Positions 59,007-61,594 of a stretch of DNA of 64,000 nt are shown here, one piece after another; the first letter of the stretch is position 1, and every line of letters begins with the position of its first letter. The notes below the pieces were generated by a model. That model did no database searches. It was not told the DNA's origin and saw only the letters and a program-made list of their open reading frames with translations. A program made the translations under genes and the position numbers. Source of the DNA: an uncultured delta proteobacterium. Its GTDB lineage: Bacteria > Desulfobacterota > Desulfuromonadia > Desulfuromonadales > BM103. The stretch is taken from positions 96,001 through 160,000 of the forward strand of contig CAVQRZ010000005.1 of NCBI GenBank assembly GCA_963715335.1. The letters are read 5' to 3'.

Positions 59007-59930
59007 ATGCAATCGCTGAGAACAATCACCGTCACTGCCGTTCTTCTGATCGCCCTGCCGGTTCTGGCGGCAGCAGCGATAGAGGACTATTTCGTCCAGA
59101 CCGACTGGCTGGCCGCAAACCACTCACAGGTCGTTGTCCTCGATGCACGCCAGGCACCGCTCTACCTGCTCGGACATATTGACGGGGCTTACAGCATCCC
59201 CCGCAGCGAGTTCCTCGACAAACGCGGTGGGGTCAAGAGCCTCGTACCAACCACCACCGACTTCGAAGTCCTGGTGGAAAAGTTCGGCATCACCCCGAGC
59301 ACCACGGTGATCATCTACGCCGAGCATGACAACCCCTATGCAGCACGCCTTGCCTGGACCCTGAGCTATCATGGCCACGAAAGAGCCCTGGTCCTCGATG
59401 GTGGTTACGAGAAATGGTCCCGTGAAGGGCGTCCTACCTCACTGTTGCCGACCACCGCAGCCGTTCCCAGCGAATATCGCGTCACCTCCCACGGTGAAAC
59501 ACGCGCCGAGGTTGACTACGTTTTGACACGCCTCGGCAATCCCGGCGTGCTGGTCTGGGACACCCGCACTGCCGAAGAATATGTCGGGACCGATGTCCGC
59601 GCCGAGCGCGGCGGTCACATCCCCGGCGCGACCCACCTCAACTGGACCGAACTGCAACATGAGATCGACGGCGTAAAGGTCCTGCGACCCGAGCCGGAAA
59701 TCCGCGCCCTGCTTGCTGCACACGGCATCAACGACGGCCAGGAAATCATTGCCCATTGCCAAACCGGCATCCGATCCTCCTACGCCACCCTGGTTCTCCA
59801 GGCCCTTGGCTACAAGCAGGTCAAGAACTACGACGGCTCCTGGATCGAATGGGCCAACAACCCCGACCTGCCGATCGTCGCCGGCACAGAAACCTCGCAC
59901 AGCGATGAGATTGCCCTGCTCCGCAAGTGA
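59007..59930 (+). CDS. Exported tandem-domain rhodanese / sulfurtransferase
   Basis: Signal peptide (..VLAAA), GHIDGA, LDGG, GGHIPGA, active-site loop HCQTGIRS, YDGSWIEW. Confidence 0.92.
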   Translation: MQSLRTITVTAVLLIALPVLAAAAIEDYFVQTDWLAANHSQVVVLDARQAPLYLLGHIDGAYSIPRSEFLDKRGGVKSLVPTTTDFEVLVEKFGITPSTTVIIYAEHDNPYAARLAWTLSYHGHERALVLDGGYEKWSREGRPTSLLPTTAAVPSEYRVTSHGETRAEVDYVLTRLGNPGVLVWDTRTAEEYVGTDVRAERGGHIPGATHLNWTELQHEIDGVKVLRPEPEIRALLAAHGINDGQEIIAHCQTGIRSSYATLVLQALGYKQVKNYDGSWIEWANNPDLPIVAGTETSHSDEIALLRK

Positions 59931-59968
59931 TTGACTCCGTTTACGCAGCCCGTTCGCGTGGGCACACG

Positions 59969-59999
59969 GGAGTCTGACCGTATCCGGTCAGACTCCTTT
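59969..59999 (+). terminator. Terminator-like hairpin after the rhodanese gene
   Basis: GGAGTCTGACCG-TATC-CGGTCAGACTCC followed by TTTG. Confidence 0.65.
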
Positions 60000-60072
60000 G
60001 CGTTTGGTAAAGAAAATAATTTCACGCCGCAAATTTCGAGCTATACTATCGGCAAAAATGAGGATGCGAAAC

Positions 60073-60906
60073 ATGTCCAGCCGTATCAAGAACCAGTTGA
60101 TTGCCAAGATCATCACCCGCTTCCCGAGCCTGGCGCAACGTTTTATCGCTGCCTACCAGCCCTGGGAGTCCGGGGAAACGCCTCCCTGGACACCTGTTAC
60201 CAGACCTCTGGGCGAATGCAGGGTTGCACTGGTCACAACCTCGGGCATCCACCACAAAGACCAGCAGCCTTTCGATATGCTGGACAGCGAGGGCGACCCC
60301 AGTTTCCGGGAAATAGAGGGGGCAACTATTGCCAGCAACTACATGATCACCCATGACTACTACGACCACGGCGATGCCGAGAAGGACCTCAACATCATCT
60401 TCCCGATCGACCGTCTCCGTGAGTTGCAGACCGAGGGGGTGATTGGCGACCTGGCGACCCGCCATTACTCCTTTATGGGACATATAGACGGGCGTCATAT
60501 CGCTACGCTGGTCAACAAATCAGCCAGACAGCTTGTCGGGAAGCTCCGCCAGGACGCCGTTGATGCGGTCCTGCTGACCCCTGCCTGAGGCATCTGCAAC
60601 CAGTCCGTGGGACTGGTCCAGAGAGAGATCGAAAAAGCCGGCATCCCGACTGTCGGGGTCTCGATCGTACGCGAATATACCGAAAAGGTGCAGCCTCCCA
60701 GGACCGTTTACCTCAAGTGGCCCTTCGGCCATCCGCTCGGTGAACCGGGCAACATCAGGCAGCAACGGGCCGTGGTCCTGGAGGCCTTCAGGGTGCTTTA
60801 TTCGGCGACAACTCCGGGAGAGATTGTTGATCTGCCGTTTCGTTGGCGACGGCATGATTATGATAGTTACGAGGAGCCGAAGGGGTTTGTGCCAATTCGG
60901 GAATAA
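60073..60906 (+). CDS. PrdB/GrdB-family selenoprotein (Sec at TGA 60586-60588)
   Basis: ORFs 59998..60588 and 60607..60906 are in the same frame and separated by one TGA, giving DAVLLTPA-U-GICNQSVGLVQREIEKAGIPTV. Family motifs VALVTTSG, GDPSFREI, D.NIIFPIDRL.EL, YSFMG, PPRT, PFGHPLG. SECIS-like hairpin follows. Confidence 0.9.
60599..60617 (+). promoter_or_regulatory. Putative bacterial SECIS hairpin
   Basis: ACCAGTCC-GTG-GGACTGGT, an 8-bp stem with a G-initiated loop, beginning 11 nt after the TGA. Confidence 0.75.
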
Positions 60907-60987
60907 AGAATTTATCGAGCCACCATATTTGATTGTATGGTGGCATCGTTGATTTTAAATTCTTTAGAATCTTAAGATCAAAGCTTA

Positions 60988-61479
60988 AACCGGCGGGTCG
61001 CGTCCCGCCGGACGCCATACTTTTGTCCGGCAACAAAAGTATGCAAAAATGCCTTCACCTTGCGGTGGGCATCTCCTTTGCCAGGTTTCTCTGAATTCAA
61101 GAACCTACTGTGATGGGAATCCGGCCCTGTGTCAAAGGGCCTGACCTTTCTGTGTGATCTTTATGGGTCATGTCTAAATTACGACGGTGCTAGCAATCAT
61201 CCTTAACAGGAGAGGCTCTTTTGCTCCTTGCTCCTTTAGTGGTGTTCCGTGCCTGCTGGTTGTAATTGGTCTCAGCAGCTTGATCTTGCCACCCCATTTT
61301 GACAGCAGTGCGGCGAGGCCCCCTGTAACGGGCCGGCTTGTCTCCTCTGCTGTTTTTTGAGGCCATTGACCCTTCGCGAACGTCTATAGCCCTCCGCTAG
61401 GAGTAAGGCGTTTTTTGCGTACTTTTTGTCGCCGCTTGGACAAAAAGTACGGCGTCTGGCGGGACGCAACCCGCCGGTT
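60988..61479. repeat. Non-coding structured repeat element, copy 2 (REPIN/MITE-like)
   Basis: About 70-bp imperfect terminal inverted repeats (AACCGGCGGGTCGCGTCCCGCC.GACGCC.TACTTTT..). The left 160 bp is homologous to 5566..5733. Confidence 0.88.
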
Positions 61480-61594
61480 CTGATTTTGAACTTAAACTCA
61501 TAACCAATTAAATTATGCAGGCGACATATTCCTAGCAATGTGTTGCCCGCATAATTTACTTTATCTCCCCCTCCCCCTTCGCTATCCTTGCCGC

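What the first reader, a model, noticed from the sequence alone, without database searches (positions are those of the whole stretch)
60073..60906. Hidden orphan selenoprotein: PrdB/GrdB-like gene read through a TGA with a SECIS hairpin
Seen: two in-frame ORFs joined by a single TGA (60586-60588) give a 277-aa protein with TPA-U-GIC, a UxxC motif. An 8-bp hairpin with a GTG loop starts 11 nt downstream. Established: this is the catalytic Sec position of the D-proline reductase PrdB / glycine reductase GrdB family, and bacterial SECIS elements lie just 3' of the UGA. Unusual: no prdA, grdA, grdE or grdC/D partner occurs in this 64 kb. A terminator-like hairpin and a TATACT box upstream suggest the gene is monocistronic. 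Inference: a stand-alone Sec enzyme with an uncharacterised substrate, outside Stickland fermentation. Standard gene callers would split it in two.
Basis: partly seen in the sequence, partly recalled or inferred. Interest (0 to 1): 0.78.

Follow-up and report, generated by a model that had tools for sequence, protein, structure and literature searches.

The report
Partner-less PrdB-like selenoprotein beside a rhodanese
The two reading frames are one conserved gene whose internal stop codon is predicted to insert selenocysteine; its product resembles the selenium subunit of proline reductase, but no gene for that enzyme's partner was found in the genome, so it likely works alone as a sulfur- or peroxide-reducing enzyme, and it belongs to a long-catalogued family.

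Summary
Observation confirmed. 60073-60906 is one 277-codon frame with a single in-frame TGA (U172, motif U-G-I-C). TGA stands at this site in 67 of 67 motif-matched homologous loci, and Cys stands there in 53 of 77 full-length homologs. The 8-bp hairpin covaries (97.7% of cells paired against 65.6% under synonymous redraw) and fits the published bacterial SECIS model. The genome has selA, selB, selD and tRNA-Sec. It has no detectable PrdA/GrdE or GrdA, with positive controls ringing. The protein fails the PrdB equivalog cut-off (182 < 300 bits) and branches apart from operon-encoded PrdB, so it is unlikely to be D-proline reductase. It is common: 87 of 301 phylum genomes carry a strong homolog and 79 of those lack PrdA/GrdE. 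Such proteins have been listed as 'PrdB' selenoproteins since 2005, and this scan noted the gene before in other genomes. Best guess (0.5): a stand-alone selenol/thiol reductase for reactive sulfur or peroxide; the substrate is untested.

The parts
60073..60906 (+). Gene for a 277-aa (about 31 kDa) stand-alone PrdB-like protein, predicted selenoprotein
   Evidence: PF07355 53 bits, cut-off 22; TIGR01918 78.6 > 65.45; TIGR04483 182.4 < 300; AlphaFold pLDDT 96.3 for the whole chain; mass
60586..60588 (+). In-frame TGA, predicted Sec172 of the U-x-x-C motif
   Evidence: TGA in 67 of 67 motif-matched loci out of 73 examined; Cys at this site in 53 of 77 full-length homologs
60595..60597 (+). Cys175, predicted resolving cysteine
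   Evidence: 45 of 45 close and 37 of 42 distant rows of alignment A2
60599..60617 (+). Bacterial SECIS-like hairpin: 8-bp stem, GUG loop 18 nt after the UGA
   Evidence: meets the four published constraints quoted
60042..60047 (+). TATACT, possible -10 box (inferred)
   Evidence: a loose TA[TCG]A[ACG]T pattern lies upstream in 29 of 63 loci, mostly close kin, with no chance control; not called by the promoter scan
59968..59997 (+). Terminator-like hairpin between the rhodanese gene and the selenoprotein gene
   Evidence: (z -6.06); a strong hairpin recurs in this gap in close kin
59007..59930 (+). Tandem-domain rhodanese (sulfurtransferase, CQTGIR loop) with a signal-peptide-like N-terminus; conserved upstream neighbour

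Best explanation
This is one gene whose TGA is predicted to be decoded as selenocysteine, giving a PrdB-like protein that likely acts without a pyruvoyl subunit as a selenol/thiol oxidoreductase on reactive sulfur (persulfides, disulfides) or hydroperoxides. Shown by sequence comparison: the intact frame, the conserved TGA/Cys site, the covarying SECIS-type hairpin, Sec machinery in the genome, and no detectable PrdA/GrdE or GrdA. Inferred from the PrdB mechanism: the Sec172 selenolate attacks the substrate, Cys175 resolves the adduct to a selenenylsulfide, and thioredoxin/thioredoxin reductase (present in the genome) would re-reduce it. Inferred from gene neighbours only: that the substrate is sulfane sulfur or peroxide. 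I put the selenoprotein reading at about 0.97, 'not D-proline reductase' at about 0.93, and this substrate class at about 0.5.
For: Read-through; the part after the TGA is as conserved as the part before (68% vs 59% mean identity, 44 rows); one compact model, pTM 0.93. Machinery: selA, selB, selD with its own in-frame TGA, tRNA-Sec. No partner: PF09338 in 0 of 61 relatives and not in G000, while the same search rings in 16 of 301 phylum genomes; GrdA not in G000 but found in 4 of 4 GrdE-bearing controls; PrdC only below cut-off. D-proline binds at the pyruvoyl group of PrdA (PMC11229817 passages), so PrdB alone has no substrate-activating group. Sulfur context: rhodanese ortholog directly upstream in 18 of 23 genomes that have it, in four families, on three separate branches of the tree; in one further genome the gene lies inside a cystathionine beta-synthase / cystathionine gamma-synthase-or-lyase / cysK run. 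A paper title reports peroxidase activity for the homolog GrdB (Groebe et al. 2007, PMID 17009022; seen only as a reference-list entry). Thioredoxin and two thioredoxin reductases are in G000.
Against: No biochemical or expression data. The rhodanese is not obligatory: it is adjacent in 16 of 30 relatives that carry the gene and in 3 of the 87 strong carriers of the phylum sample, and 13 of the 18 adjacent cases besides G000's own are further members of one family plus one more genus of it, so they are not independent. The rhodanese has a signal-peptide-like N-terminus and the selenoprotein has none (read by eye, no predictor run), so they may sit in different compartments. Here a terminator-like hairpin separates the two genes. 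Most homologs have unrelated neighbours. The fold gave no clear match to a solved enzyme, so it offers no support for a substrate. Thioredoxin systems are near-universal (controls), so their presence says little.
Confidence: 0.5

Rival explanations
1. It keeps the ancestral PrdB/GrdB chemistry: Sec attacks a carbon and reductively cleaves a C-N, C-S or C-As bond of a substrate that needs no pyruvoyl activation (an onium compound, as recalled for betaine reductase), alone or with an unrecognised partner.
For: Homology to the catalytic part of PrdB and GrdB over residues 37-260; sister group of PrdB. Distant subfamilies lie beside catabolic genes (luciferase-like monooxygenases in 4 loci, acyl-CoA dehydrogenases, a GcvT-type oxidoreductase), and three loci lie near genes of the TIGR04283 / DUF2064 / DUF3641 radical-SAM type. 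The predicted fold is a three-layer alpha/beta enzyme-like domain with many invariant His/Asp/Tyr residues.
Against: No GrdA to take over a selenoether intermediate; no conserved transporter or catabolic neighbour in the close subfamily; no conserved partner gene found in the loci examined.
Confidence: 0.2
2. It binds or reduces soft metals (Cu, Ag, Hg) through Sec172/Cys175 and conserved histidines as part of metal resistance.
For: 5 of 42 gene copies in 41 genomes lie within 5 kb of a P1B heavy-metal ATPase or CusA/CzcA-type gene, against about 0.7 expected (Poisson P 0.0007). H60, H94, H137 and H220 are invariant in 45 of 45 close rows.
Against: The test was post hoc, one of the five is a partial, below-cut-off CusA match, 37 of 42 copies show no such neighbour, accessory genes cluster in islands for other reasons, and in G000 the nearest such ATPase is about 86 kb away.
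Confidence: 0.15
3. It is a true D-proline reductase PrdB whose PrdA gene is missing from the assembly or too divergent to detect.
For: Best NCBIfam match is TIGR04483; 41% identity to annotated PrdB; JGI names truncated homologs 'D-proline reductase PrdB'; G000 has a proline-racemase-family gene.
Against: 182 bits against a cut-off of 300 (6). PF09338 missing in 0 of 61 relatives' favour (none found) and in 79 of 87 strong carriers. Operon-encoded PrdB branches apart from all 50 stand-alone rows (SH-aLRT 95 and 98). The racemase-family protein has a Cys/Thr dyad (MCGH...SPTGT), scores best, though below cut-off, as trans-3-hydroxy-L-proline dehydratase, and is not found in 20 of 30 carriers.
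Confidence: 0.03
4. The TGA is a real stop or a sequencing error: a pseudogene or two separate genes.
For: 118 of the 120 best database proteins end at the residue before the TGA.
Against: That is the expected gene-caller truncation. The TGA is conserved across the phylum, aligns with Cys in full-length homologs, is followed by a covarying hairpin, and both halves are conserved. Contigs of other runs that cover the site list no other letter at 60586-60588 among the 40 rows shown (53 rows not shown).
Confidence: 0.01

Closest known systems
PrdB, selenoprotein subunit of D-proline reductase (TIGR04483; C. sticklandii, C. difficile)
   Same: Same single domain, similar length (277 vs about 240 aa), U-x-x-C at the same place, 35-41% identity to annotated PrdB over residues 36-261; sister group in the tree.
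   Different: Below the equivalog cut-off; no prdA/prdC/prdF context (contrast); extra N-terminal amphipathic helices; FMGHI where operon PrdB has MGGGG (118); conserved rhodanese neighbour in part of the clade.
GrdB/GrdF/GrdH, selenoprotein B of glycine, sarcosine and betaine reductases (PF07355, TIGR01918)
   Same: Matches the C-terminal half above the Pfam and TIGR01918 cut-offs; Sec at the homologous site.
   Different: Lacks the N-terminal ~215 residues; U-x-x-C rather than UxxCxxC; far below the GrdB/F/H equivalog cut-offs; no GrdE or GrdA found in the genome.
'Proline reductase (PR/PrdB)' selenoproteins of environmental surveys (Sargasso Sea, GOS, Olavius symbiont, Geobacter uraniumreducens, Anaeromyxobacter dehalogenans)
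   Same: Predicted UxxC selenoproteins homologous to PrdB in deltaproteobacteria and sea water: 42 genes, 235 genes against 5 GrdB, 5 genes in one symbiont, named genomes. This protein most likely belongs with them (inferred; those sequences were not fetched).
   Different: The passages read name them proline reductase and do not discuss a missing PrdA, a separate clade or a rhodanese neighbour.

Membership tests
Bacterial selenoprotein gene | In-frame UGA conserved and aligned with Cys in homologs | tested here: met
   67 of 67 motif-matched loci TGA; Cys in 53 of 77 full-length homologs
Bacterial selenoprotein gene | bSECIS: 3-9 nt loop, 4-16 bp stem, G early in the loop, 16-37 nt from UGA, MFE at most -7.5 | tested here: met
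   3-nt GUG loop, 8 bp, 18 nt, -12.4 kcal/mol; covariation
Bacterial selenoprotein gene | selA, selB, selC, selD in the genome | tested here: met
Bacterial selenoprotein gene | Selenium found in the product | not testable with these tools
   needs 75Se labelling or MS
Glycine/betaine/sarcosine/D-proline reductase selenoprotein B superfamily (PF07355, TIGR01918) | Score above the curated cut-off | tested here: met
   PF07355 53 > 22; TIGR01918 78.6 > 65.45
D-proline reductase PrdB (TIGR04483) | Score above the equivalog cut-off of 300 bits | tested here: not met
   182.4 bits
D-proline reductase PrdB (TIGR04483) | Pyruvoyl proprotein PrdA encoded in the genome | tested here: not met
   no PF09338 or TIGR04480 match in G000 (completeness 100%); PF09338 control rings in 16 of 301 (30)
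D-proline reductase PrdB (TIGR04483) | Branches with operon-encoded PrdB | tested here: not met
   separate branch, SH-aLRT 95/98, quick IQ-TREE, only 4 PrdB-type rows
D-proline reductase PrdB (TIGR04483) | Reduces D-proline to 5-aminovalerate | not testable with these tools
   needs an enzyme assay
Glycine/sarcosine/betaine reductase GrdB/F/H | About 435 aa, UxxCxxC, above equivalog cut-off, with GrdE and GrdA | tested here: not met
   277 aa, UxxC, 70-76 bits against 602-800; no GrdE or GrdA
Thioredoxin-fold UxxC oxidoreductases | Thioredoxin fold | tested here: inconclusive
   no thioredoxin-fold chain among the listed rows; best Z 8.6 (rmsd 3.0, 133 aligned) to a LacI-type regulator domain, within background

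The most novel reading that the evidence does not exclude
The stand-alone PrdB-like selenoproteins, among the most abundant selenoproteins of sediments and sea water and mislabelled 'proline reductase' for twenty years, are a separate enzyme class: Sec-dependent sulfane-sulfur reductases that, in this lineage, work with an exported rhodanese as a two-gene relay disposing of persulfide or polysulfide sulfur across the membrane, with a fold that has no solved representative.
Probability: 0.2. Interest if true: 0.62.

Novelty: new member of a known kind. Interest (0 to 1): 0.3.

Why it matters
As a gene, it corrects an annotation: 118 of the 120 best database homologs are cut at the UGA, and pipelines name the stub 'D-proline reductase PrdB', which would wrongly suggest Stickland proline reduction in genomes where no PrdA is found. 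As a family, the partner-less branch is far more common in this phylum than the glycine/proline reductases themselves (87 vs 16 of 301 genomes), has no solved structure and no function in the papers found. The rhodanese and cysteine-metabolism neighbours give a first testable substrate class.

Tried and rejected
Solved-structure searches by sequence and fold gave no credible homolog; the best Z of 8.6 is within the tool's stated background, which shows neither a new fold nor a function. Rfam found only tRNAs in the window. The proline-racemase-family gene in G000 was considered as support for proline reduction and rejected. A universal conserved neighbour was sought in 45 + 67 + 12 loci (partly redundant) with Pfam on subsets (58 proteins, 134 of 220 selected, 64 of 121) and none was found. 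A profile of 14 tandem rhodaneses found a rhodanese within 2.5 kb in 31 of 136 loci (redundant loci included), all but one being the same ortholog; it detected no Sec-rhodanese, with low sensitivity for single-domain forms. No language-model atlas comparison and no complex prediction were obtained. Paper searches for 'PrdB-like', 'PrdB' + 'without PrdA' and 'betaine reductase selenoprotein B' + 'Desulfuromonadales' (103) returned 0 papers; searches returned surveys and clostridial enzymology only. The library lacks most subscription papers, and no supplements were read, so a prior description of the partner-less clade is not excluded.

Full report
Observation. The frame 60073-60906 translates to 277 residues with one TGA at codon 172, in LLTPA-U-GICNQSVG. 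Table 11 splits it into 171 and 99 residues. An 8-bp hairpin with a GUG loop lies at 60599-60617, a strong hairpin at 59968-59997, and TATACT at 60042-60047 (not called by the promoter scan).

The TGA is very likely Sec. Of 73 homologous loci examined (partly redundant between searches), 67 matched the motif and all 67 have TGA; five of the other six show TGA there, and one contig ends before the site. Among 77 full-length database homologs that span the site, 53 have Cys, 9 Ser, 6 Gly, 4 Trp (probably TGA read as Trp by a gene caller; inferred) and 5 other residues. Identity to the query is 59% before and 68% after the TGA in 44 close rows. In 55 distinct 48-nt segments the stem pairs in 97.7% of 440 cells with 21 double-sided changes; redrawing synonymous codons gives 65.6% and never more than 71.8% in 1000 draws, so protein conservation alone does not explain it. 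Related sequences are not independent, so these are not probabilities. The hairpin meets all four constraints of the bSECIS model quoted in PMC13188914 (passages). The genome has selA, selB, selD and tRNA-Sec. AlphaFold with 87 rows gives one confident alpha/beta model, pLDDT 96.3, with U172 in the loop between strand 165-169 and helix 175-188.

What family. PF07355 and TIGR01918 are passed; TIGR04483 (PrdB) scores 182.4 against 300 and the GrdB/F/H models 70-76 against 602-800. The nearest named homologs (76-90% identity) come from records titled Desulfuromonadales or delta proteobacterium. In a quick IQ-TREE of 59 rows rooted on five long GrdB domains, four Bacillota PrdB rows form one branch and all 50 stand-alone rows another; the close subfamily is a branch within it (the FastTree of 105 rows also recovers the close subfamily). 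Only four PrdB-type rows were included and support is SH-aLRT alone.

No partner. In the known enzyme D-proline binds the pyruvoyl group of PrdA and Sec of PrdB attacks its alpha carbon (PMC11229817 passages); a PrdB cysteine is proposed to resolve the selenoether (PMC3091704 passages). G000 (100% complete, 6.87% contamination) has no match to PF09338, TIGR04480 or GrdA and only sub-cut-off matches to PrdC. The gene is in 30 of 61 relatives, PF09338 in 0 of 61, selA in 58 of 61. In 301 phylum genomes of at least 90% completeness, 96 match, 87 with E at most 1e-24; PF09338 is in 16, of which 8 are among the 87, and in each of those 8 it lies on another contig beside a long GrdB-type hit (counted by hand from the tables). 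Annotated prdB genes in three of four fetched Bacillota records sit beside prdA; the fourth has no prdA within 4 kb. The racemase-family gene of G000 looks like a hydroxyproline dehydratase and is not found in 20 of 30 carriers.

Neighbours. No neighbour is universal. The upstream tandem rhodanese is the only recurrent one: an ortholog of at least 57% identity occurs in 23 genomes of the two samples and lies directly upstream on the same strand in 18, from four families, one outside the class. In four more distant genomes the gap is -11, -4, 6 and 40 nt, as in an operon; in close kin it is 120-274 nt and holds a strong hairpin and a TATACT-like box. Against a strict link: 14 of 30 related carriers and 84 of 87 strong phylum carriers lack this neighbour, 15 of the 18 cases are one family, four genomes have the rhodanese without the gene, and the rhodanese looks exported while the selenoprotein does not (by eye). 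One genome places the gene between cystathionine beta-synthase, a cystathionine gamma-synthase/lyase and cysK. Five of 42 copies lie within 5 kb of heavy-metal efflux genes against 0.7 expected, a post hoc result.

Mechanism. Shown: gene, Sec signals, absence of detectable partners. Inferred: Sec172 attacks, Cys175 resolves, thioredoxin re-reduces (Trx and TrxB present). Without a pyruvoyl subunit the substrate must be electrophilic by itself. Sulfane sulfur or peroxide fits the neighbours and the title of Groebe et al. 2007 on GrdB peroxidase activity (reference entry only); I give this 0.5. Cleavage of an onium compound (0.2; the betaine reductase parallel is recalled, not from a call) and metal handling (0.15) remain open. 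True proline reductase (0.03) and pseudogene (0.01) are unlikely.

What is known. [quoted passage not shown] PMC1914089, PMC2702500 and PMC6778437 were seen as passages and added nothing on this branch. Ten searches found no paper on a partner-less clade; most subscription papers and all supplements were unseen. Earlier notes of this scan report the same kind of gene in other genomes (8 shown of 16 windows) and two report a pairing with a Sec-rhodanese; these are unchecked leads.

Verdict. A real, correctly spotted selenoprotein gene of a catalogued superfamily, misnamed in databases and without a known substrate. New member of a known kind; interest 0.3. The useful additions are the clade-level absence of PrdA with controls and the rhodanese link.

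Noticed in passing
window 60955-61512: Repeat element right after the gene, with 70-nt inverted ends (77% complementary) and internal hairpins. Its left ~170 nt occurs 63 times on 22 contigs of G000; the full-length form once. Looks like a MITE/REP-type element.
   Followed up: partly
G000 C6:149754-151046 and C40:6614-7981: Two selA matches, nearly identical over most of their length; the C6 copy, upstream of selB and selD, lacks the normal N-terminus and has a stop there, while the short contig C40 holds an intact copy. Possibly an assembly artefact.
   Followed up: partly
protein P0161: A close-subfamily homolog fused behind a VTT (DedA-type) membrane domain and cut at the Sec site; VTT genes also lie near homologs in L109 and L115.
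   Followed up: no
L085, L103, L109: Homologs of three different subfamilies lie near TIGR04283-type glycosyltransferase, DUF2064 and DUF3641 radical-SAM genes, which NCBIfam links to arsenosugar biosynthesis.
   Followed up: no
L131 (G250 C36): Gene embedded in a cystathionine beta-synthase / cystathionine gamma-synthase-or-lyase / cysK run followed by an RND efflux system.
   Followed up: partly
L021 434-1355 (G002): The rhodanese ortholog is split by a frameshift in this genome while the selenoprotein gene is intact.
   Followed up: no
L156 (NZ_CP007453.1): Peptoclostridium acidaminophilum carries a prdB-annotated gene with no prdA within 4 kb; it branches with true PrdB, not with the stand-alone clade.
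   Followed up: partly
L086, L090, L098, L099, L102: A subfamily has U-P-L-D-H instead of U-x-x-C, so it lacks the resolving cysteine.
   Followed up: no
proteins P0127, P0140: Cys-containing homologs with long N-terminal extensions; P0127 carries an HTH_3 domain, suggesting a redox-sensing regulator.
   Followed up: no
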